Assembly (NCBI GenBank): GCA_043822305.1
Contig: JBDRBU010000085.1
Location: forward strand, 1 to 42,688
Source: Candidatus Firestoneibacteriota bacterium
GTDB taxonomy: Bacteria > Oederibacteriota > D2-FULL-39-29 > JBDRBU01
DNA length: 42,688 nucleotides
Direction: 5' to 3'
The position numbers were made by a program, and so were the translations under genes. The notes under the pieces were generated by a model. The model saw nothing but the letters and a program-made list of their open reading frames with translations, made no database searches and had not been told where the DNA came from. Shown piece by piece: positions 7,892 to 42,405 of this stretch; position 1 is the first letter of the stretch, and the number at the start of each line of letters is the position of its first letter.

Positions 7892-8863
7892 ATGGAATAC
7901 ATTGATTGTTCTGTTTGTCATTCGAAGACCACCAAACTACTATTGGTCACGAAAGATTACGACTGGGGTATACCCGGTGAATTTAATATTGTGCGCTGTG
8001 ATGAATGTGGTCTTGTTTATGTGAATCCGAGGCCTGATAAAAATGAAATACAAAAATATTACCCGGAAAATTATTTTTACACAGTAAATAAGGAGGACTT
8101 ATATAAGGAAGCAATAAAGTCAATAATCTTTAAAAGAAGAGTTAACTTTTTGGAAAAATTCGGCAAATCCGGGAAATTGCTTGATGTTGGAACAGGAGAC
8201 GGTTTGTTCCTGAAAATATTAACCGATAAAGGATGGGATGTCTCTGGAGTGGAACCTTCTATTACGGCAGCTAGTTTCGCAAAAAGCAAACTTAACCTGA
8301 AAATTTACAACAGTGGACTTAAAGAAGCAAATCTGAAAGAAAAAGAATTTGATTTTATAAGTATGTGGGAAGTGCTGGAGCATATATCCGATCCAAACGA
8401 GAATATAAAGGAAGTTTGCCGGCTTCTTAAAGATGATGGTGCTTTTATTTTTAGTGTACCGAATTTTAACAGCCTTCAAAGATTATTATTTAACAAATAC
8501 TGGTACGGGTTGAAAGCCCCGACCCACCTATATCATTATACATCTAAAACTGTTAGAAAATTGCTTTCAAATAATGGGTTTAAGGATGTGAAAATTTATA
8601 ACAGTTTGATTAATGTTAAGAATCCGCTTCCCGGATATTCTGACAGTTTAAGATATATGTTAAGCGACTTGAATTTGTATCCAAAAAGACAAAATCTTGT
8701 CAGAGTAGAAAATACTATAACCGTTAAGGGAAAGCCAAATATGAGAAAAATACCAGCAGCCATCTTGCATTTTATAGAATTTATAGTATTTGGAACCCTG
8801 GAGATAATCAGCTTTTGTTTTGGCCGGACAGCCACCTTATTTGTAGTGGCCAAAAAGGAATAA
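7892..8863 (+). CDS. Class I SAM-dependent methyltransferase with N-terminal CxxC/CxxC
   Basis: CSVC...CDEC, LLDVGTGDG, WEVLEHISDP, PTHLYHY. Confidence 0.85.
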   Translation: MEYIDCSVCHSKTTKLLLVTKDYDWGIPGEFNIVRCDECGLVYVNPRPDKNEIQKYYPENYFYTVNKEDLYKEAIKSIIFKRRVNFLEKFGKSGKLLDVGTGDGLFLKILTDKGWDVSGVEPSITAASFAKSKLNLKIYNSGLKEANLKEKEFDFISMWEVLEHISDPNENIKEVCRLLKDDGAFIFSVPNFNSLQRLLFNKYWYGLKAPTHLYHYTSKTVRKLLSNNGFKDVKIYNSLINVKNPLPGYSDSLRYMLSDLNLYPKRQNLVRVENTITVKGKPNMRKIPAAILHFIEFIVFGTLEIISFCFGRTATLFVVAKKE

Positions 8864-9060: not shown

Positions 9061-10107
9061 ATGAAAATATTGTTAGTTGCGCCTTCAGAAGGTATTTTAG
9101 GACATATAGCAGATTGGACAAAAGATGCTTTTATTTCGTATAATCATGATGTTAGATCTTTTGACTACAGAAAGAGTCCTCATTCTTTTTTAACAAGAAT
9201 AGCCGATAGATTGAGTATAATGAAAGACCTAAAAGCTAAAAAGATGAATTCAGATTTATTAAGGGAAATAAATAATTATAATCCGGATTATATACTTGTG
9301 TTTTTAGGTGAGAATATACACTCTTCAACATTAATGGACATAAAAGAAAAGAGTAATGCAACCTTGATTAATTGGTTTCATGATACTGTTGTTTCTAAAT
9401 ATAGGAATAAGTTTTTACAAGAATATCCCAAATACTATGATTTCTTTTTTATAATTGATTCCTTAAAAGCATTAAAAGAAATAAATATTACAGCTGATAA
9501 CTTCCAGACATTAGTAATGGCTTGTGATGAGAATGTTCATAAAAAAATCAATATTAACGAAGAAGATAAAACAAAATATAAAAGTAAAGTAAGTTTTATA
9601 GGAACAGTTGTACCTCAAAGGGTAAAAGTACTCGAACATATAGCAGATTTAGATCTATCAATATGGGGATCAAAATATAATATATTTGGTAATTGGATAA
9701 AAGAATTTCCTGTTTTAGCTAAATCTTACCGAAGAGGCCCTTTTAAAGAATATTCGGAAGTTGTTAAGATAATAAATAGTTCAGATATCATTGTAAATAT
9801 ACATGGTTTTACAGGAGAGAAACATTTTGATATGCCTTCAAGAACTTTTGAAGTAGCTGGATGTGGAACATTTCAATTAACGGAATATACAGAAAGCATT
9901 AGTGAATATTTTGAAATAGGAAAAGAAATAATTTGTTTTAAAACTAAAGAAGAATTAAGAGATCTAATTAAATATTATCTATCTCAGACTAAAGAACGGG
10001 AAGAGATAGCAAAGAATGCGCAAAAAAGGACGTATAAAGACCATACTTTTAAACAAAGAATTAAGAAGATGCTGGAAATAATTAAAAATGAAAAACAAAA
10101 AATGTGA
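9061..10107 (+). CDS. CgeB-like glycosyltransferase (GT-B)
   Basis: VSFIGT, RTFEVAGCGTFQLTE, KDHTFKQRI motifs. Confidence 0.85.
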   Translation: MKILLVAPSEGILGHIADWTKDAFISYNHDVRSFDYRKSPHSFLTRIADRLSIMKDLKAKKMNSDLLREINNYNPDYILVFLGENIHSSTLMDIKEKSNATLINWFHDTVVSKYRNKFLQEYPKYYDFFFIIDSLKALKEINITADNFQTLVMACDENVHKKININEEDKTKYKSKVSFIGTVVPQRVKVLEHIADLDLSIWGSKYNIFGNWIKEFPVLAKSYRRGPFKEYSEVVKIINSSDIIVNIHGFTGEKHFDMPSRTFEVAGCGTFQLTEYTESISEYFEIGKEIICFKTKEELRDLIKYYLSQTKEREEIAKNAQKRTYKDHTFKQRIKKMLEIIKNEKQKM

Positions 10108-11125
10108 AATTTGCGGGTCTAAAGATTTTAAGTTATTATATATTCTTGAAGATTGCAATCGAAGGAATAAAGGTGTTTTTAAAATAGTAAAATGCAAAAA
10201 ATGCAAATTCGTTTATTTGAATCCAGTCCTTAATAGAAAAGAATTAAATAAATTTTATTTATCAACATGTTACAAGATGGATTTAAATGAGAAAGAAAAA
10301 GAAGGTTTAAGCGAAAGATATGAGCTTATCAATCATTTTAAAAAAAAGGGTAAAATACTTGATATTGGGGCTGCACAAGGATTTTTTCTTAAGTTTATGA
10401 AAGATAAAGGTTGGGATGTTAAAGGGGTGGAATTGTCAAAAGAAGCATGTTCATTTGCAAAAAGAAAACTTAATCTGAATATTACAAACAAGGATTTTAT
10501 TAAAACTGATTTGAAAAACGAAAAATTTGATGTTATGACCATGTTTGAGGTAATGGAGCATATTCCGAATATAAATGAAAACCTGAAAAAAATATATAAT
10601 CACTTGAAAAATAAGGGTGTTTTAATAATCAGTGTTCCGAATTTTAATAGTTTGCAGAGATTTATTTTTGGGAGATATTGGTGTCATATAGATGTACCAA
10701 GGCACTTGTATCATTTCACCAGAAAAACAATAAAAAAATTACTTTTAAATAATGGATTTGTCATTGAAAAAACATTTGGTAGTTTAGTCCTGGCGAAGGG
10801 TAATATTTTATCCGGTCTTATAAAACGATTAAGGCAAAATATACCTTCAGGGAATAAGAAAGATAAAGACATTCAATCTTCTCTAAAAGGTAATCCATGT
10901 TTGTCATGCCCGAGTGTATTAATCGGGCATCCAGAGTCTTATCTTATCAGTGGTTTTAAGACACTGGATTCCCGCATTCGCGAGAATGACACAAAAAATG
11001 ACTTTTTCAACAGCTTGAATACATATAAAATACAATTTATTAAACCAATAAGTTTAATGATAAGATTATTATCTTTTGTAACTGGAACTACCGGGACAAT
11101 GCATATAGTTGCGAGGAAAAGGTGA
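10088..11125 (+). CDS. Class I SAM-dependent methyltransferase carrying an in-frame palindromic insertion
   Basis: CEIC...CKKC, ILDIGAAQG, FEVMEHI, VPRHLYHF. Paralog of 7892..8863 with an extra C-terminal segment. Confidence 0.85.
   Translation: MKNKKCEICGSKDFKLLYILEDCNRRNKGVFKIVKCKKCKFVYLNPVLNRKELNKFYLSTCYKMDLNEKEKEGLSERYELINHFKKKGKILDIGAAQGFFLKFMKDKGWDVKGVELSKEACSFAKRKLNLNITNKDFIKTDLKNEKFDVMTMFEVMEHIPNINENLKKIYNHLKNKGVLIISVPNFNSLQRFIFGRYWCHIDVPRHLYHFTRKTIKKLLLNNGFVIEKTFGSLVLAKGNILSGLIKRLRQNIPSGNKKDKDIQSSLKGNPCLSCPSVLIGHPESYLISGFKTLDSRIRENDTKNDFFNSLNTYKIQFIKPISLMIRLLSFVTGTTGTMHIVARKR
10902..10991. mobile_element. 90-bp palindromic miniature element inside a CDS
   Basis: TGTCATGCCCGA..TCGGGCATCCAGAGTCTTA ... 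TAAGACACTGGATTCCCGC..GCGAGAATGACA. The ends match those flanking the GIY-YIG gene, and the length is a multiple of 3. Confidence 0.85.
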
Positions 11126-17994: not shown

Positions 17995-19164
17995 ATGAAA
18001 AGAATAAGATTGGTAACAACACATTTAAAAATATGGGAGCTTATTTATTATACAATTAAATCATTAAATCATAGAGATAAATATTATTTTCAATTAATTA
18101 ATCAATTGAAAGAAAAAACAAATAGTAAATATTGTTATTTGTTTAGTTCTGGGACAGCAGCATTTTCAATAGCATTAGAATCATTAAAAAGATTAAGCAA
18201 CAAACAGGAAGTAATTATTCCTGCTTATACTCCTTTAATTCTTATTGTCAAAATACAAGAAAACAATTTAAAACCTATACCATGTGATATTTCCCTAAAA
18301 ACACTATCTTTTGATGAAAGTGATTTTAATAAGAAAGTAAATTCTCAAAATACACTATGTGCAGCTTATGTTCGTTTATTTGGTATTTATACTCCGATAA
18401 GTACTTATTTGAAAATAGCAAAAGAAAATAAGTTTTTCTTGTTAGAAGATGATGCTCAGTCATTTATAGTAAACACGAAAGAACAAGGAGATATTATTTT
18501 ATTTAGTTTCAAGAGAGGTAAAAATTTTACTACATTTAGTGGCGGGGTATTACTTGGTAATGATGAAAAAATATTTGAAAGTATATATGAGAACTATAAT
18601 GAATTGAAAAATCAATCTACTCTAATAAAACTATACACATTTATTAAATTTCTTGCATTTATAATTATAAAAAATAAATATTTATATTCAATATTTAGTG
18701 CTGTAATAAAAAAATTTAAGGATATAGATGTTCCAAAAGATTTAAGAAAAAACAAGTATACTAATTGGCAAGCCTCAGTTGGATTGAGGTTATTAGAAAA
18801 GATAGATAAACTTAATAAAACAAGACATGAAAACACTGAAAGAATTTTGCAAAGTTTAAACAAATATGATGTATTCCAAATGCCAGAAATAGATCCATTA
18901 TCCAATTTGAACAGATTTCCATTAATTATTAAAGATGTGAAATTAAAAGAAAAAATTATTAAGAACTTAACAAAAAGCGGAATAGAAGTTTCTGATATGT
19001 ATAACAAAACATTACCTTACATATTTAATTTGGGATACAACAAAGAAGATTTTCCAAACGCTTATTATTTAGCTGACCGTATAATTACTTTACCGGTACA
19101 CCCATTAGCAACTTCTAACGATATTGATTTTATGATTGAGGAGATAAAAAAATGCTTCCAATGA
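17995..19164 (+). CDS. DegT/DnrJ/EryC1/StrS PLP aminotransferase
   Basis: SSGTAA, EVIIPAYT, EDDAQS, FSFKRGKN (PLP lysine), ITLPVHP. Confidence 0.85.
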   Translation: MKRIRLVTTHLKIWELIYYTIKSLNHRDKYYFQLINQLKEKTNSKYCYLFSSGTAAFSIALESLKRLSNKQEVIIPAYTPLILIVKIQENNLKPIPCDISLKTLSFDESDFNKKVNSQNTLCAAYVRLFGIYTPISTYLKIAKENKFFLLEDDAQSFIVNTKEQGDIILFSFKRGKNFTTFSGGVLLGNDEKIFESIYENYNELKNQSTLIKLYTFIKFLAFIIIKNKYLYSIFSAVIKKFKDIDVPKDLRKNKYTNWQASVGLRLLEKIDKLNKTRHENTERILQSLNKYDVFQMPEIDPLSNLNRFPLIIKDVKLKEKIIKNLTKSGIEVSDMYNKTLPYIFNLGYNKEDFPNAYYLADRIITLPVHPLATSNDIDFMIEEIKKCFQ

Positions 19165-20318
19165 AAAATATTAATAGAAATCTAAGAAAAGCAATGCTTG
19201 AACCTGCATATGCTTTTAAGGCGTTTTTAAAAAGAAGTAAAGCATATCTAAAATACTTGTTTAATGAACGAGGTGAAAGCATATATCCTGAAGCTGTAAC
19301 TTTTTTTCTTACTTTTAAATGTAATTTGCGTTGTTATATGTGCGGTCAATGGGGGGACAGCGGGTGCAATAAGAATTATGATTCCAAAAAGTTAAATGAT
19401 GAAATCCCACTTGAAAAATTAATTAGTTTTTTAGACGAAATAAAACTTTTTAATCCGCATATAACTTTGTTTGGCGGGGAACCGTTGTTGTTTGGCCATA
19501 TAGAAAAACTAATTAAAGAAATTAAGAACAGGAATTTACATTGCTGCATTATTACGAATGGTGTGCTTCTTGAAAGGTATGCAGAGACCATAGTAAATAG
19601 CCAGGTTGATGAATTATCAATATCAATTGATGGACCCGAATATATTCATGACCAAATAAGAAATGTAAAAGGTACATATGAAAGGATTAAAAAAGGTGTT
19701 GAGAAAATAAATCAATTAAAAAAAGAAAAATCGCAAAAATTTCCAATTATTAATATTGTGTGTACCATTTCCGAGAAAAATTATGGACATCTTGAAGAAA
19801 TGATAGATGTGACCAAACAAATAAATGCGAACACATTAAATTTTCATCATCTTATTTTTACAGAAGAAAGTACATTAAAAAGGCATAATAAATTATTTAA
19901 AGAGTGTTTTAATAAAGAATCGGATGATTGGGCTGGATATATTTTACCAGGGGTGAGTAAAATAAAAACGGATATTCTATGTGAAAATATTAAAAAAATT
20001 CAAAGGGAAAAACTTCCCTTTCTAATGAATTTTTATCCTAACTTTACGGATAGCGAAATAATTGAATATTATACAAAGGAAGACTTTGTTTCGAAGTCTT
20101 ATCCAAAAAGATGCTTAAGCCCTTGGGTAGTAGCATATATTTATCCCGATGGAAGTGTTTTACCATGTCATTCGTTAAGTTATACTGTTGGCAACATAAA
20201 AGAAGAATCCTTTCTAAATATTTGGAACGGTGAGAAGTTTAAGTATTTTAGAAAAAAGCTAAAAAAAGAAAAATATTTTCCAATTTGCCCTAAATGTACT
20301 GAAATGTACAGATACTAG
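19152..20318 (+). CDS. Radical SAM protein with SPASM/twitch domain
   Basis: CNLRCYMC, GGEP, C-terminal CLSPW...DGSVLPC...GNI...CPKC. Confidence 0.9.
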   Translation: MLPMKNINRNLRKAMLEPAYAFKAFLKRSKAYLKYLFNERGESIYPEAVTFFLTFKCNLRCYMCGQWGDSGCNKNYDSKKLNDEIPLEKLISFLDEIKLFNPHITLFGGEPLLFGHIEKLIKEIKNRNLHCCIITNGVLLERYAETIVNSQVDELSISIDGPEYIHDQIRNVKGTYERIKKGVEKINQLKKEKSQKFPIINIVCTISEKNYGHLEEMIDVTKQINANTLNFHHLIFTEESTLKRHNKLFKECFNKESDDWAGYILPGVSKIKTDILCENIKKIQREKLPFLMNFYPNFTDSEIIEYYTKEDFVSKSYPKRCLSPWVVAYIYPDGSVLPCHSLSYTVGNIKEESFLNIWNGEKFKYFRKKLKKEKYFPICPKCTEMYRY

Positions 20319-20413
20319 CAAAAGAAGTAAATGAAACAATTAAAGTAAAAAAAATAGTAAGTTCCTACTGAACATCGTCTGAAATGAAGTAATATCAATG
20401 GTTTTTGACTTTT

Positions 20414-20803
20414 TGTCATTCCCGAGTAACTTGTCCTCGTGAAAACGGGGATCGGGAATCCATAGTCTTTTAAATGTATCAAAAACATTATTATGTATAT
20501 ATTTTAGCAAGTAAAAGAAATGGGACGCTGTATATTGGCGTTACAAATGATTTATCAAGAAGAGTTTATGAACACAAAAATAATTTTATAGAAGGTTTTA
20601 CAAAAAGGTATAAAGTTCATAATTTAGTTCATTTTGAAGAAACAGATAGTATTGAAAGTGCTATTTTAAGAGAGAAACAACTGAAAAAATGGAACAGGCA
20701 ATGGAAAAAGGATTTAATCGAAAAAAGTAATCCTTATTGGAGCGATTTATATCAGGATATAATTGGGTAAGTCACTGGATTCCCAATCGAGTTGGGAATG
20801 ACA
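20414..20803 (+). mobile_element. Hairpin-flanked GIY-YIG element
   Basis: TGTCATTCCCGA...TCGGGAATCCATAGTCTT, then the ORF, then TAAGTCACTGGATTCCCAA..TTGGGAATGACA. Confidence 0.75.
20474..20770 (+). CDS. Stand-alone GIY-YIG nuclease
   Basis: YYVYILAS-RNGTLYIGVT-DL-RRVYEH...AILREKQLKKWNRQWK; catalytic Tyr/Arg/Glu appear intact. Confidence 0.95.
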   Translation: MYQKHYYVYILASKRNGTLYIGVTNDLSRRVYEHKNNFIEGFTKRYKVHNLVHFEETDSIESAILREKQLKKWNRQWKKDLIEKSNPYWSDLYQDIIG

Positions 20804-20868
20804 AGCAGAAATTGTTGAAATGTATGGTAACGGGGTTGAGTGAATATTTACGGTAAGATAAAAATATA

Positions 20869-22008
20869 ATGAAAAAAATATTACATATAGTTACAAGATT
20901 AGAATACGGCGGAACATTGGAAAATATACTAACACTTGTTAATGGTTTGTCCATTGATTATGAAAATATTCTGTTGCTTGGCCGTAAGAATACAGCCATG
21001 TTAAGGGTTAAGGAGTGTTCTAATAAGAATAATTTTAAGGTAATTTACATAAATGAACTGGTTCGAGAGATAAATCCATTTTATGATTTAAAGGCACTGT
21101 TAAAAATATATAAAATAGTAAAAAAAATAAGCCCTGATATTGTACACACACATACATCAAAATCCGGGTTTTTGGGTAGAATTGCGGCCAGGATGGCAGG
21201 ATGCAGGAAAGTAGTGCATACTCCACACGGGCATATCTTTTACGGGTATTTCGGTGAGTTTAAAACATTTATTTTTGTCTTGCTCGAAAGAATCATGGCA
21301 AAGGTTACAGACAAGATAGTAGTGTTTTCTAAATCGGAAATTAAAGACCATTTGAGACTGAAAATAGGCAAGAAAAAACAGTTTATAGTAATACCAAATG
21401 GAATAAATATAAATAAATTTGAAAAAGTAAAAATAAATGTGAACTTGAAAAAGAAAGAACTTGGAATAAATATGAATGATAAAGTAATTGGAGTTATAGG
21501 AAGACTTTCTGTCGTAAAAGGGCATATTTATTTTTTAAAAGCAATGAGAGATGTTATAAAAGCAATAAGATATGTGAAAGTAATAGTAGCTGGAAGCGGA
21601 GAACTCGAAAAAGAGTTAAAACAAAATGCAAATGATTTGAACCTTCAAGATAATGTACTTTTTATTGGTAATAGAAATGATGTGCCTGAGATTCTAAAAA
21701 TTTGTGATTTAGTTGTGTTACCATCATTAAATGAAGGGTTTGGACTTGCTATTGCAGAAGCAGGTGCCGCAGGAAAACCGGTTGTAGCCACTAGGGTTGG
21801 CGGTATTCCTGAAATAATCAAGGAGAATGAAACAGGATTACTCGTTAATCCCAAAAATGTCGTTAATCTTTCACGAAAGATTATATATTGTCTTAAAAAT
21901 CCTGCTATGGCAAATAAGATGGGATTTGCAGGTAGAAAACATATAAAAGACAATTTTACAACAAAAATAATGATTAAAAGGTATAGGAATTTGTATGAAA
22001 ATATTTAG
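20869..22008 (+). CDS. Glycosyltransferase family 4
   Basis: VHTHTSK, HTPHG, IPNGI, EGFGLAIAEAGAAGKPVV. Confidence 0.92.
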   Translation: MKKILHIVTRLEYGGTLENILTLVNGLSIDYENILLLGRKNTAMLRVKECSNKNNFKVIYINELVREINPFYDLKALLKIYKIVKKISPDIVHTHTSKSGFLGRIAARMAGCRKVVHTPHGHIFYGYFGEFKTFIFVLLERIMAKVTDKIVVFSKSEIKDHLRLKIGKKKQFIVIPNGININKFEKVKINVNLKKKELGINMNDKVIGVIGRLSVVKGHIYFLKAMRDVIKAIRYVKVIVAGSGELEKELKQNANDLNLQDNVLFIGNRNDVPEILKICDLVVLPSLNEGFGLAIAEAGAAGKPVVATRVGGIPEIIKENETGLLVNPKNVVNLSRKIIYCLKNPAMANKMGFAGRKHIKDNFTTKIMIKRYRNLYENI

Positions 22009-40634: not shown

Positions 40635-40982
40635 GGGGGTGCACGGATTCGACGGGGGTATTGAAATATAGATTGCCTGTAGAGGTGCCACTAACCTCTT
40701 GAAACAGGTGGCAAAATTTTAACTGCTGACTACAAGTTAGCACTGGCTGCTTAAGGCAGTCACGCTTTGCTAGTTTTACCTGCGGGATTAGTAAAGTGTC
40801 AAATAGCAGGATAGCATAATTTGTTTCACCTAAGGACAAATGATGCGAATCTTTACTTAGGTTAGTAATATCAAATCCTGCCTTTGGGAGTTGGTATTGC
40901 AAATCTAAAACAAAGGAAATACAGGTAGTAATCTATACGGATGTACTTTCGGACGTGGGTTCGATTCCCACCACCTCCACCA
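40635..40982 (+). ncRNA. ssrA: tmRNA; tag (A)ADYKLALAA* at 40725-40754
   Basis: 5' GGGGGTG..GGATTCGAC and 3' GGGTTCGATTCCCACCACCTCCACCA; G3-U acceptor wobble; TAACT-GCT resume context. Confidence 0.97.
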
Positions 40983-41031
40983 ATAAAAAGGGGACGGCCA
41001 CCATTATTTATAGAAAAACCAAAAAATTGTA

Positions 41032-41060
41032 TTGCTTTTGAAAGGGTTTTTTGATAATAT
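41032..41060 (+). promoter_or_regulatory. Candidate tRNA operon promoter
   Basis: TTGCTT-17 nt-TAATAT with a TGn extension. Confidence 0.35.
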
Positions 41061-41162
41061 ATTAAAAAGTAAAACTTTTTGAAAGAAAAACTGTTGCTGT
41101 GTAGAAGGTCACACCGATCATATTTATGCCAAATCGATTCTGGCAATTTTAAAGTAAAAAAT

Positions 41163-41239
41163 GCGCCCGTAGCTCATCTGGATAGAGCAACTGCCTTCTA
41201 AGCAGTAGGCTGGAGGTTCGAGTCCTCTCGGGCGCGCCA
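41163..41239 (+). tRNA. tRNA-Arg(TCT)
   Basis: Acceptor GCGCCCG/CGGGCGC, anticodon arm ACTGC-CTTCTAA-GCAGT, encoded CCA. Confidence 0.97.
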
Positions 41240-41252
41240 TTAAAAAATTTAA

Positions 41253-41326
41253 GCGCCATTAGCTCAGCCTGGTAGAGCAGCCGACTCTTAATCGGGAGAC
41301 CGGGGGTTCGAATCCCTCATGGCGCA
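41253..41326 (+). tRNA. tRNA-Lys(CTT), CCA not encoded
   Basis: Acceptor GCGCCAT/ATGGCGC, anticodon loop CTCTTAA, GGTTCGAATCC T arm. Confidence 0.93.
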
Positions 41327-41328
41327 TA

Positions 41329-41478
41329 AATATATACAGAGCAGAAATAGAATCATTTTCAGCAGCAATAGAAAAAGATAAAAAACCTGAAATTAGTGGC
41401 GAAGATGGTTTATGGAATCAGAAAATTATTTTAGAATGTTATAAATCAGCAAAACAAAGAAAAAGTATTAAGTTGTAG
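41329..41478 (+). pseudogene. C-terminal remnant of a Gfo/Idh/MocA-like oxidoreductase
   Basis: Start-less frame NIYRAEIESFSAAIEKDKKPEISGEDGLWNQKIILECYKSAKQRKSIKL*. Confidence 0.65.
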
Positions 41479-41502
41479 ATAAAACAGATATACTCTGACA
41501 CA

Positions 41503-41871
41503 TTAAGGGGCTGGATATAATAGATTATAACTGTCTTTATTTAGCATTAGCAGGAGACAGTATAATGTTGGAAGTTTTTGTTTTATACTGTTTAAAGAAT
41601 CTTTTTTTTGAAAAATAGATATATATTGTTCAGCTAATACATCTCTGAATCTTAACAATTCTTTTAACAAATTCTTTCTCATTTTTATGCTGATGGTTAA
41701 ATCTATAAGTTCGAACGCCCTCTCATAACAGTTTTTAACTTCTTCCAAATCGTTCTTATTTATCCAATTTTTTGCCCTATTTAACTCATTAGCGATCATA
41801 ATAATTTGTTTAGAAAATGGAAATAGCATCCACTTTTCACTATTCAATGTCTTATGGTGTTTAAGGTTCAT
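41503..41871 (-). CDS. Hypothetical helical protein coupled to the DUF5674 gene
   Basis: 122 aa; W..F...QI.MIANEL.RA...YERAFELIDLTI...ELLRFR; overlaps the upstream gene by 11 nt. Confidence 0.8.
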   Translation of the reverse strand: MNLKHHKTLNSEKWMLFPFSKQIIMIANELNRAKNWINKNDLEEVKNCYERAFELIDLTISIKMRKNLLKELLRFRDVLAEQYISIFQKKDSLNSIKQKLPTLYCLLLMLNKDSYNLLYPAP

Positions 41872-42208
41872 AGTTTATGAGGTTATCAATTATCTTTTTA
41901 ATTTTTTCTACGATTTTTTTATCTTCAATTTCCATGGAGTAATTATCTTGATGAGGCCTAATATTTATTAATGAAGTATATTCTATAAGATCATCTTTAT
42001 TTTTAAACGGATATAAATTTATACCCCAAAGATTTTCTTGTTTTGACCCATTTTCTAAGAGATATGTCTCTAAATCTGAATGGAGTTCTGCATCTACGAC
42101 CATTATCTCTTTTTCTATATCAACAACTCCTTTGATCAGAGTCTTAAAAAAATTAGAAAACTTCTGTGAAAGTTGATTTCTATTTATTTTTTCTTTTATA
42201 ATTTCCAT
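41861..42208 (-). CDS. DUF5674-like protein
   Basis: IKGVVDIEK...ELHSDLE..LLENGS.QENLWGINLYP...SLINIRP; start moved to MEIIK. Confidence 0.8.
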   Translation of the reverse strand: MEIIKEKINRNQLSQKFSNFFKTLIKGVVDIEKEIMVVDAELHSDLETYLLENGSKQENLWGINLYPFKNKDDLIEYTSLINIRPHQDNYSMEIEDKKIVEKIKKIIDNLINYEP

Positions 42209-42266
42209 TATTTTAATTATACAAAATCTTTTAGAGAAATGCAATAAAAATATAGAAAATTACCCC

Positions 42267-42295
42267 TTGTCTTTTATGTTAAAAAGTTGTATAAT
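42267..42295 (+). promoter_or_regulatory. Candidate tRNA-Leu promoter
   Basis: TTGTCT-17 nt-TATAAT. Confidence 0.55.
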
Positions 42296-42323
42296 TAAGT
42301 TAGATATTGCTGTCGAATATGTC

Positions 42324-42405
42324 GCGAGGGTGGCGGAATTGGCATACGCGTTGGACTTAGGATCCAATCCCGAAAGGGTTGCGGGTTCAACTCCCGCTCC
42401 TCGCA
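42324..42405 (+). tRNA. tRNA-Leu(TAG), CCA not encoded
   Basis: Acceptor GCGAGGG/TCCTCGC, TTGGA-CTTAGGA-TCCAA, variable arm CCCGAAAGGG. Confidence 0.96.

What the first reader, a model, noticed from the sequence alone, without database searches (positions are those of the whole stretch)
20414..20803. Candidate GIY-YIG-driven mobile element: a nuclease gene between hairpin arms, with a matching gene-less copy in the same window
Seen: the 390-bp unit is a left arm (TGTCATTCCCGAGT..ATCGGGAATCCATAGTCTT), a 98-aa GIY-YIG ORF and a right arm (TAAGTCACTGGATTCCC..GGGAATGACA) whose first TAA is the ORF stop. The 90-bp element at 10902-10991 has the same two arms (TGTCATGCCCGAGT..ATCGGGCATCCAGAGTCTT and TAAGACACTGGATTCCC..GAGAATGACA), including the inner non-hairpin segments, but no gene. 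The left stems co-vary: ATTCCCGA/TCGGGAAT versus ATGCCCGA/TCGGGCAT. Known: REP/REPIN families are mobilised by RAYT HUH nucleases, and GTC-tagged palindromes and Rickettsia palindromic elements exist without an established mobiliser that I know of. Inference: this small GIY-YIG subfamily plays the RAYT-like role, cutting and spreading its own hairpins without an obvious target duplication.
Basis: partly seen in the sequence, partly recalled or inferred. Interest (0 to 1): 0.88.

Follow-up and report, generated by a model that had tools for sequence, protein, structure and literature searches.

The report
Ssn nuclease gene with hairpin repeats
A tiny DNA-cutting enzyme gene bracketed by two DNA hairpins, with gene-less hairpin pairs nearby, is real, but it belongs to the Ssn nuclease and hairpin-repeat system described in Neisseria in 2025, so it is a new example and not a new kind of element.

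Summary
Window 20414-20803 is left hairpin arm + 98-aa GIY-YIG ORF + inverted right arm. 10902-10991 is a gene-less pair of the same arms.

It is not new. The protein is 63% identical, without gaps, to the Neisseria gonorrhoeae SsnA orthologue. Window Y9/Y20/E67 align with the published catalytic Y6/Y17/E64. The arms are NTS/SRM-type "CGTC-tagged" hairpins (Chenal 2025, PMC11893778; Di Nocera 2013, PMC3733652). In 80 homologous loci, 68 have the upstream arm, 60 the downstream arm and 53 both; shuffles give about 0.2 per side.

That paper already shows that Ssn cuts single-stranded DNA beside its hairpin, and already raises the IS/RAYT analogy. The scan met such units before on other DNA.

Added here:
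- Five of five analysed related genomes keep the flanking operon without the unit.
- The gene-less copy sits in frame inside a methyltransferase gene.
- One Bradyrhizobium site holds the gene-bearing, gene-less, other-repeat or empty state.

So the unit arrived by insertion. That Ssn itself mobilises it remains unproven. Verdict: new member of a known kind; interest about 0.25.

The parts
20414..20469 (+). Left arm of the gene-bearing unit. It is an NTS/SRM-like hairpin read on the top strand: TGTC tag, 8-bp stem ATTCCCGA/TCGGGAAT, a 26-nt loop holding a nested small hairpin, CCA tail, and inner segment AGTCTT.
   Evidence: fold -11.1 kcal/mol, z -3.2. Upstream arms of the same build occur in 68 of 80 homologous loci.
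20474..20770 (+). ssn gene: a 98-aa single-domain GIY-YIG nuclease of the Ssn family.
   Evidence: ORF. (PF01541, E 1.6e-16, residues 6-79). (57/90 identical, no gaps, E 1e-40 to the N. gonorrhoeae SsnA orthologue; Y9/Y20/E67 align with Y6/Y17/E64). (all 40 columns that are at least 90% conserved are kept).
20768..20803 (-). Right arm, an NTS/SRM-like hairpin read on the bottom strand: TGTC tag, stem ATTCCCAA/TTGGGAAT, 5-nt loop, CCAG tail, inner segment TGACTTA. It overlaps the ssn stop codon.
   Evidence: z -3.5. Downstream inverted arms occur in 60 of 80 loci, with a median of 9 nt after the stop.
10902..10940 (+). Left arm of the gene-less head-to-head pair: stem ATGCCCGA/TCGGGCAT, CCAG tail, AGTCTT.
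   Evidence: z -5.2. The same arm is found at C106:2345 and in 14 of the 16 fetched G012 copies.
10941..10956 (.). A 16-nt spacer in the place of the gene. It resembles the last codons of ssn (TATCAG..TGG..), which suggests an internal deletion.
   Evidence: Read. The spacer is conserved in the G012 copies. The derivation is inference.
10957..10991 (-). Right arm of the gene-less pair: stem ATTCTCGC/GCGGGAAT with one mismatch, 4-nt loop, CCAG tail. It is the only one of the four arms that fits the published SRM search string.
   Evidence: z -2.0.
10992..11025 (.). Right-hand extension (CAAAAAATGACTTTTTCAACAGCTTGAAT...). It is shared with the C106 copy and with one G012 copy. It could be part of a longer variant of the element or a preferred target; this is unexplained.
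   Evidence: (G012:C36 match runs over query 397-526).
10088..11125 (+). Host ORF (a methyltransferase by likeness of sequence; no family scan was run on it) that carries the gene-less pair in frame, at residues about 272-301 (..CLSCPSVLIGHPESYLISGFKTLDSRIRENDT..).
   Evidence: Three homologues show a 31- to 34-column gap there. Searches of relatives align only residues 1 to about 250.
19152..20318 (+). Upstream neighbour, a 388-aa protein labelled rSAM in my scripts (no family scan was run on it). It is part of a conserved three-gene order.
20869..22008 (+). Downstream neighbour, a 379-aa protein labelled GT in my scripts (no family scan was run on it). In 5 of 5 analysed related genomes it follows the rSAM-labelled gene after 140-226 bp with no ssn unit. 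Here the gap is 550 bp, which is 390 bp of unit plus 160 bp.

Best explanation
This is an Ssn/SRM unit. It is a 98-aa single-domain GIY-YIG nuclease of the Ssn family (SsnA of Neisseria), flanked by its own recognition hairpins in inverted orientation. The arms are NTS-like, CGTC/TGTC-tagged REPs. Gene-less head-to-head pairs of the same hairpins lie elsewhere in the genome.

By homology (inferred, not assayed here), the protein binds the folded hairpin only when the DNA is single-stranded. It needs the 5' (C/T)GTCAT tag and the 3' CCA tail, and it cuts that strand a few nucleotides 5' of the tag. At this unit that predicts one nick just left of 20414 on the top strand and one just right of 20803 on the bottom strand.

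The unit is an insertion into a conserved three-gene order. The gene-less pair is an in-frame insertion in a methyltransferase-like gene. Both statements rest on comparison with related genomes.

What Ssn does for the cell here is not shown. It could trim incoming or exposed single strands at the repeats, as in Neisseria transformation, or it could supply the cleavage step of its own spread.
For: Homology to characterised Ssn:
- 63% gapless identity to the N. gonorrhoeae orthologue. That ORF has Y6, Y17 and E64, as mutated in PMC11893778, and lies among 12 NTS matches in 1470 bp.
- Desulfosarcina widdelii is scored ssnA-positive on all four criteria of Supp Data 4, including more than 60% identity to Nm SsnA. 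Its two homologues are 69% and 58% identical to the window protein.

Protein: a single GIY-YIG domain, with all 40 highly conserved columns kept.

Arms:
- They have the published build of tag, AT-started 8-bp stem and CCA tail. CCA is the tail in 111 of 128 arms.
- In 80 loci, 68 have the upstream arm, 60 the downstream arm, 53 both and 5 neither. Shuffles give 0.18, 0.22 and 0.
- Median unit size is 384 bp (n=53); the window unit is 388 bp.

Insertion. Presence and absence states at one Bradyrhizobium site.
Against: - Only 1 of the 4 window arms fits the published degenerate SRM string. The stems close with G-A/T-C or A-A/T-T instead of G-C, and one loop is 26 nt. Across the 80 loci the string fits both sides in only 20 and either side in 46.
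- Copy number in this genome is low: 3 units and 1 solo arm. Neisseria has hundreds.
- No assay of this protein exists. CDD cd10448 could not be run.
- The nearest genomes available are in another family, so the exact insertion point and any target duplication could not be mapped.
- The 80 loci are the best of 587 confirmed matches and so are a biased sample.
Confidence: 0.85

Rival explanations
1. One reading: an active autonomous mobile element. Ssn itself is the mobiliser (a RAYT-like role), and the gene-less pairs are its MITE/REPIN-like non-autonomous derivatives, copied to new sites through Ssn nicks.
For: - The unit is bounded by inverted repeats and is compact (median 384 bp).
- It is absent from the same gene order in 5 of 5 analysed related genomes.
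- A gene-less pair is inserted in frame in a gene.
- G012 holds 16 to at least 37 dispersed gene-less copies with unrelated flanks.
- Homologues are 70-78% identical across many phyla, and many sit on very short contigs.
- The gene-less spacer resembles the 3' end of ssn.
- The analogy is voiced in the Discussion of PMC11893778.
Against: - No target duplication is seen.
- There is one gene copy per genome here.
- Published Ssn cuts only 5' of the hairpin and not the reverse strand. That gives one nick per strand, and no joining activity is known for a 98-aa GIY-YIG domain.
- G012 has many copies, but its two good ssn genes carry other arm types.
- The gene-less state at the Bradyrhizobium site can arise by recombination between the two flanking pairs, without any transposition.
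- Stem class tracks protein similarity only weakly.
Confidence: 0.35
2. A domesticated host function. Ssn and its few hairpins serve the cell, for example by trimming single-stranded DNA at marked sites during uptake, repair or replication. The repeats were spread in the past, or by other agents such as recombination or the tyrosine transposases present in this genome.
For: - Neisseria SsnA modulates transformation through NTS repeats (PMC11893778, sections 9 and 12).
- There is a single intact gene with all conserved residues.
- Copy number is low.
- Earlier notes of this scan, not tested here, report a TIR-flanked tyrosine transposase cassette and GTAG-tagged REPs in this genome.
Against: - The unit is lineage-specific inside a conserved operon.
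- The family's scattered distribution at high identity across phyla looks like horizontal spread rather than an old host gene.
- Di Nocera 2013 found no link between CGTC repeats and tyrosine transposases.
Confidence: 0.3
3. The hairpins act at the RNA or transcription level, as terminators, attenuators or mRNA stabilisers, and flank the gene only because they regulate it.
For: REP-type hairpins can stabilise or terminate transcripts (background in PMC3733652). Regulation was also Chenal et al.'s first working hypothesis.
Against: - No terminator-like site and no excess of promoter-like sites in 20250-20900.
- No Rfam family matches there.
- SsnA does not bind RNA.
- One copy lies inside a coding frame.
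Confidence: 0.05
4. A free-standing GIY-YIG homing endonuclease that cuts empty alleles and is copied in by repair.
For: It has a GIY-YIG domain. There is a weak match to the group I intron endonuclease model TIGR01453.
Against: - That match scores 21.7 bits against a cut-off of 56.05.
- The protein has no DNA-binding domain; it is 98 aa and a single domain.
- Characterised relatives cut single-stranded DNA beside their own hairpins, not double-stranded empty sites.
- There are no phage matches.
Confidence: 0.04

Closest known systems
Ssn nuclease family with NTS/SRM hairpin repeats (SsnA of Neisseria meningitidis; CDD cd10448 GIY-YIG_unchar_3; Chenal et al., Nat Commun 2025, PMC11893778)
   Same: - A small single-domain GIY-YIG protein, 63% identical to the gonococcal orthologue.
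- The same catalytic Tyr/Tyr/Glu positions.
- The gene sits between inverted hairpins with a (C/T)GTCAT tag, an AT-started stem and a CCA(G) tail.
- Gene-less copies of the hairpins lie elsewhere in the genome.
   Different: - The stems end in GA/TC or AA/TT, so 3 of the 4 arms miss the published SRM search string.
- One arm has a 26-nt loop with a nested hairpin.
- There are only 3 units and 1 solo arm in the genome, against hundreds in pathogenic Neisseria.
- The host is an AT-rich uncultivated bacterium (31.6% G+C).
- One gene-less pair sits in frame inside a gene.
CGTC-tagged REPs (families CGTC-1 to -4; include Neisseria dRS3 and Rickettsia RPE-4/RPE-6; Di Nocera et al., BMC Genomics 2013, PMC3733652)
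   Same: - A CGTC/TGTC tag, an 8-9-bp stem beginning with AT, a 4-5-nt loop and a CCA tail.
- Mostly head-to-head dimers, often heterodimers.
- Some copies lie inside genes.
   Different: That paper found no dedicated enzyme for them. Here, and in Chenal 2025, they flank an ssn gene. Copy number here is low.
REPIN/RAYT systems (HUH Y1 transposase with GTAG-tagged REP dimers)
   Same: A single-copy nuclease gene flanked by the hairpins that it recognises as single-stranded DNA. Dispersed inverted hairpin dimers.
   Different: The enzyme fold differs (GIY-YIG, not HUH). The tag differs (GTC..CCA, not GTAG). No covalent tyrosine-DNA chemistry is known for GIY-YIG enzymes (recalled, from no call). 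Ssn makes one cut per strand.
Insertion sequences with MITE derivatives
   Same: Terminal inverted repeats around one gene. Short gene-less versions keep both ends. Presence and absence differ between related genomes.
   Different: No target-site duplication is seen. No transposase-type (DDE, HUH or serine) enzyme is present. Transposition has not been demonstrated.

Membership tests
Ssn nuclease family (Chenal 2025) | Sequence homology to Neisseria SsnA | tested here: met
   BLASTP gives 57/90 identical, 0 gaps, E 1e-40 against the 94-aa ORF of N. gonorrhoeae (L190). That ORF carries Y6, Y17 and E64, as named in the paper.
Ssn nuclease family (Chenal 2025) | Small protein made of one GIY-YIG domain, with no separate DNA-binding domain | tested here: met
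   98 aa; PF01541 covers residues 6-79. The only other Pfam match, T5orf172 (PF10544), covers the same stretch.
Ssn nuclease family (Chenal 2025) | Catalytic residues equivalent to Y6, Y17 and E64 | tested here: met
   Window Y9, Y20 and E67 align with them. All three lie in columns that are at least 90% conserved across 81 sequences.
Ssn nuclease family (Chenal 2025) | Gene flanked on both sides by inverted hairpin repeats (NTS-ssn-NTS) | tested here: met
   The same holds in 53 of 80 homologous loci.
Ssn nuclease family (Chenal 2025) | Arms fit the published SRM search string HGTCWYN(0-2)YYVSBRHN(0-5)WNVSBRGN(0-2)RNCYNB | tested here: inconclusive
   1 of 4 window arms fits. Among the 80 loci, 20 fit on both sides and 46 on either side. 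The string was drawn by hand from 29 genomes and misses stems that close with A-T and loops that are long.
Ssn nuclease family (Chenal 2025) | Assignment to CDD cd10448 | not testable with these tools
   No CDD library is on hand. NCBIfam has no model for it; only sub-threshold matches came back.
Ssn nuclease family (Chenal 2025) | Site-specific cleavage of single-stranded DNA only, next to the hairpin | not testable with these tools
   This needs a biochemical assay.
CGTC-tagged REPs (Di Nocera 2013) | CGTC/TGTC tag, 8-9-bp stem starting with AT, CCA tail | tested here: met
   All four window arms have TGTC. The stems are ATTCCCGA, ATTCCCAA, ATGCCCGA and ATTCTCGC. The tails are CCAT or CCAG.
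CGTC-tagged REPs (Di Nocera 2013) | Loop of 4-5 nt | tested here: inconclusive
   Two arms have 4- or 5-nt loops. The gene-less left arm has 5 nt by the extended stem, or 9 nt with the 8-bp stem. The left arm of the gene unit has 26 nt with a nested hairpin.
CGTC-tagged REPs (Di Nocera 2013) | Head-to-head dimers | tested here: met
   Units at 10902-10991 and at C106:2345-2455.
CGTC-tagged REPs (Di Nocera 2013) | Abundant repeat family in the genome | tested here: not met
   3 units and 1 solo arm in 2.15 Mb. My generic arm finder does not separate signal from noise genome-wide: 62 hits against 59 in the backwards control.
REPIN/RAYT | HUH tyrosine transposase and GTAG tag | tested here: not met
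   The enzyme is GIY-YIG. The tag is TGTC..CCA.
Insertion sequence / MITE | Target-site duplication | tested here: not met
   No direct repeat is seen at the borders of the two window copies, the C106 copy or the 16 G012 copies.
Insertion sequence / MITE | Presence/absence between related genomes | tested here: met
   5 of 5 analysed genomes of the sister family lack the unit in the same gene order. States vary at one Bradyrhizobium site.
GIY-YIG homing endonucleases (I-TevI type) | Match to the family model, and a DNA-binding domain | tested here: not met
   TIGR01453 scores 21.7 bits against a cut-off of 56.05. The protein is 98 aa and has no second domain.

The most novel reading that the evidence does not exclude
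Ssn units are true autonomous mobile elements, and the CGTC-type hairpin pairs (including dRS3/NTS and some Rickettsia palindromic elements) are their non-autonomous derivatives. A 98-aa GIY-YIG nuclease would nick each strand once at the 5' border of the element, and host replication or repair would do the rest. That would be a transposition route unlike the DDE, HUH or serine pathways. It can place elements in frame inside genes and inside operons without breaking them.
Probability: 0.35. Interest if true: 0.6.

Novelty: new member of a known kind. Interest (0 to 1): 0.25.

Why it matters
The finding therefore confirms that system; it does not discover it.

What this instance adds:
- It extends the system to an AT-rich uncultivated lineage with very few repeats.
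- It supplies comparative evidence that the paper lacks. The unit sits as an insertion in a conserved three-gene order. A gene-less pair sits in frame inside a gene. One Bradyrhizobium site is found in gene-bearing, gene-less, other-repeat and empty states.

This bears on an open question: who moves the CGTC-tagged repeats (dRS3, some RPEs), which were reported in 2013 to lack a dedicated enzyme?

Tried and rejected
- Rfam at gathering threshold: only a tmRNA and three tRNAs far from the finding.
- NCBIfam: no family; only sub-threshold matches.
- PDB by sequence: only distant UPF0213 proteins 1zg2 and 1ywl, E 3e-05 and 7e-04; no Ssn structure.
- Empty sites by DNA similarity: the nearest genomes are in the same order but another family, and no flank matched. 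I therefore used protein synteny instead.
- Congeners of G012: none are held.
- A palindromic frame in G012 (GTAATGGGTCAGT...ACTGACCCATTAC) that encloses some gene-less pairs was tried as a source of empty copies. Its copies hold various other repeats, so no clean empty site was obtained.
- Sequencing runs for read-level presence/absence: none was listed.
- Phage records: no match.
- Terminator and promoter scan of 20250-20900: 0 terminator-like sites, and promoter-like sites below the shuffle mean.
- Genome-wide count with my generic arm finder: uninformative in this AT-rich genome, 62 hits against 59 in the backwards control. True arms were picked by GC-rich stem and CCA tail.
- Co-variation of stem class with protein identity: only weak, 0.653 against 0.629, with 2 of 1000 label shuffles reaching it; related sequences inflate such a test.
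- Literature for later work on Ssn mobility: searches found none beyond PMC11893778. Subscription journals are not searched.
- Structure prediction, complex prediction, the protein atlas and the metagenome scan were not used.

Full report
**1. What is there**

The window belongs to a 2.15-Mb draft genome of 125 contigs and 31.6% G+C.

- TGTCAT, then an 8-bp stem ATTCCCGA/TCGGGAAT around a 26-nt loop that holds a second small hairpin.
- Tail CCAT and the segment AGTCTT.
- A 98-aa ORF at 20474-20770.
- TAAGTCACTGG, whose TAA is the stop codon.
- A second hairpin ATTCCCAA/TTGGGAAT and ATGACA.

The ORF is a GIY-YIG domain (PF01541, E 1.6e-16).

At 10902-10991 the same two arms and inner segments enclose a 16-nt spacer instead of a gene. 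The left stems differ by a compensated T:A to G:C change.

The arm motif occurs 3 times in the window against 0.27 expected, and 0 of 100 shuffles reach 3. As single-stranded DNA the gene-less unit folds into an outer stem, two hairpins and an inner stem (-18.8 kcal/mol, z -5.19).

The whole genome holds one more gene-less unit (C106:2345-2455) and a solo arm 243 bp from a contig end (C122:25436). It has one ssn gene of this type. A second small GIY-YIG gene of another subfamily lies on C78, and a third GIY-YIG match lies in a long open frame on C39, not examined further.

**2. It is general**

The protein has more than 8000 relatives among the candidates scored. The best 120 are 69-78% identical and come from many phyla, and many sit on contigs under 2 kb.

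In the genome collection, 587 stretches encode a relative, and the best 80 loci were kept. I defined an arm strictly: GTCAT, a stem of at least 7 bp starting with AT with at most one mismatch, then C. The counts are:

| Arm position | Loci of 80 | Mean per 80 in shuffles |
|---|---|---|
| Upstream, forward | 68 | 0.18 |
| Downstream, inverted | 60 | 0.22 |
| Both | 53 | 0 |
| Neither | 5 | - |

 Three loci have downstream flanks cut short by a contig end; they were not dropped.

Further points:
- The stems vary widely (ATTCCCGC, ATTGCCCGG, ATCCCCGC, ATCGTCCGC, ATTCTGGC and others). The GTCAT tag and the CCA tail stay; CCA is the tail in 111 of 128 arms.
- The arms hug the gene: a median of 22.5 nt before the start and 9 nt after the stop. 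Median unit size is 384 bp (n=53), and the window unit is 388 bp.

**3. It is known**

A literature search for the repeat's own letters led to Chenal et al. 2025, Nat Commun 16:2388 (PMC11893778). I read the abstract, sections 4, 6-8, 10 and 12, Methods passages, rows of Supp Data 4, and Supp Data 5. They report the following:
- SsnA of N. meningitidis is a small single-domain GIY-YIG protein (CDD cd10448).
- It binds the 28-nt hairpin repeat NTS (CGTCATTCCCGCGMAVGCGGGAATCYRG) only as single-stranded DNA.
- It cuts a few nucleotides upstream. It does not cut the reverse strand, duplex DNA or RNA.
- Y6A, Y17A and E64A abolish cutting.
- 71% of regions around ssnA homologues hold at least one related motif (SRM), and 42% hold one on both sides.
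- Homologues from three other species cut next to their own repeats.
- The Discussion calls the NTS-ssnA-NTS architecture IS-like, compares it with RAYT/REP, and proposes domestication.

Di Nocera et al. 2013 (PMC3733652; passages) had catalogued the same hairpins as "CGTC-tagged REPs". These have a CGTC/TGTC tag, an 8-9-bp stem starting with AT, a 4-5-nt loop and a CCA tail. They are mostly head-to-head dimers and include dRS3 and RPE-4/RPE-6, and the paper found no dedicated transposase for them.

**4. Membership tested here**

- PLSDB holds two N. gonorrhoeae chromosomes filed as plasmids. The window protein hits one at 63% identity.
- The ORF there is 94 aa with Y6, Y17 and E64, and it lies among 12 NTS matches in 1470 bp.
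- BLASTP gives 57/90 identities, no gap and E 1e-40. Window Y9, Y20 and E67 align with the three catalytic residues.
- All 40 alignment columns that are at least 90% conserved in 81 sequences are kept in the window protein.
- D. widdelii scores "YES" on all four homologue criteria of Supp Data 4, including more than 60% identity to Nm SsnA. Its two copies are 69% and 58% identical to the window protein.

Against this, only one of the four window arms fits the published SRM search string. Among the 80 loci, only 20 fit on both sides and 46 on either side. That hand-made string excludes stems that close with A-T and long loops. CDD itself could not be run.

**5. Is it an insertion?**

No genome of the same family is held, and DNA flanks match nothing. 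By protein synteny, five genomes of the sister family (G002, G004, G008, G010, G011) keep the order of three neighbour genes, which I labelled aminotransferase, rSAM and GT by likeness only. The spacer before the GT-labelled gene is 140-226 bp, with no Ssn match (tblastn, E 1e-5) and no GTCAT arm. G006 was dropped because its locus is cut by a contig end. In the window that spacer is 550 bp, which is the 390-bp unit plus 160 bp. The spacers are not alignable, so the exact point of insertion is not mapped.

The gene-less pair lies inside ORF 10088-11125, in frame. A paralogue in the window and homologues in G011 and G002 show a 31- to 34-column gap at that place. Searches of relatives align only residues 1 to about 250. 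The tail of this protein is poorly conserved, so the borders are approximate.

In Bradyrhizobium, one intergenic site between two conserved genes was compared across the genus. By the listed rows, at least 16 of 80 other genomes carry the gene there (221 rows were not listed). The query locus L066 reads pair-ssn-pair. Of the 12 stretches fetched:

| State at the site | Stretches |
|---|---|
| Single gene-less pair | 3 |
| Different CGTC-type pair (one truncated) | 5 |
| Other repeats | 2 |
| Different ssn unit | 1 |
| No repeat of this kind (53-bp spacer) | 1 |

The gene-less state there could arise by recombination between the two flanking pairs, so it does not by itself show transposition.

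G012, in the same class but another family, has 16 matches to the window's gene-less pair at 79-91% identity. With one of its own copies as query it gives 37 further matches, with unrelated flanks. Its two good ssn genes carry other arm types, and the genome is 90% complete.

**6. How it most likely works**

By homology, Ssn binds the folded arm when the DNA is single-stranded and cuts 5' of the tag. Because the arms are inverted, each strand carries one cuttable arm, at its own 5' border of the unit. This differs from IS200/IS605 and RAYT, which I recall (no call) cut both ends on one strand.

Shown here:
- homology to SsnA;
- the architecture of the unit;
- the insertion status;
- the existence of gene-less pairs.

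Inferred:
- the cutting itself;
- any role in spread;
- the derivation of gene-less pairs by loss of the gene. The spacer resembles the last codons of ssn.

The arms are not terminator-like, and no Rfam family matches them.

**7. Verdict**

No later paper on Ssn mobility was found, which do not cover subscription journals. Earlier notes of this scan reached the same family on other DNA. This is a new member of a known kind.

Noticed in passing
G000 contig C78:39107-39373 (L002 1489-1755), outside the window: A second small GIY-YIG gene (88 aa) of another subfamily starts about 130 bp after a tRNA gene. Two GC-rich hairpins lie in between. Earlier notes of this scan describe tRNA-adjacent mini GIY-YIG units on other DNA.
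   Followed up: partly
G000 contigs C12:4163, C51:15409, C93:10753, C121:2853, C96:12428: A second GTCAT-tagged hairpin family (GTCATTGCGAG..variable nested hairpin..GGCAATC, with CGCAATGAC partners). No ssn gene carrying such arms was found in this genome. A G002 paralogue (L099, 49% identical) is flanked by this type.
   Followed up: partly
window 20433-20451; C106 right arm; G012 L119: A small hairpin (CCTCGTGAAAACGGGG and variants) recurs nested inside the loops of SRM arms. Several of the 80 loci also have long loops with nested hairpins. The loops may be insertion spots for other mini-hairpins.
   Followed up: no
window 10992-11025; C106:2456-2485; G012:C36: A roughly 30-base extension (CAAAAAAYGACTWTTTCAACAGYCTGA) follows the right arm in three gene-less copies only. 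It is either part of a longer variant or a preferred target.
   Followed up: no
G012 loci L135-L150: A palindromic frame, GTAATGGGTCAGT ... ACTGACCCATTAC, has 16 exact matches to its core 11-mer, counting both strands. It encloses different cargo: Ssn-type pairs, other REP-like hairpins, or none clearly.
   Followed up: partly
window 7892-8863 and 10088-11125: Two paralogous methyltransferase-like genes about 46% identical (42% over the full alignment), 2 kb apart. Only the second carries the hairpin pair.
   Followed up: partly
G002 locus L094, downstream of its ssn gene: The 68%-identical ssn gene of G002 is followed directly by a complete gene-less pair with the same inner segments (CCAGAGTCTT ... 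AAAGACACTGG) as the window's copies, but with other stems.
   Followed up: no
window 40635-42405: A tmRNA gene (40635-40982) and three tRNA genes.
   Followed up: no
PLSDB records NZ_CP119140.1 and NZ_CP119142.1: Two 2.17-Mb Neisseria gonorrhoeae chromosomes are filed as plasmids in the plasmid collection.
   Followed up: no
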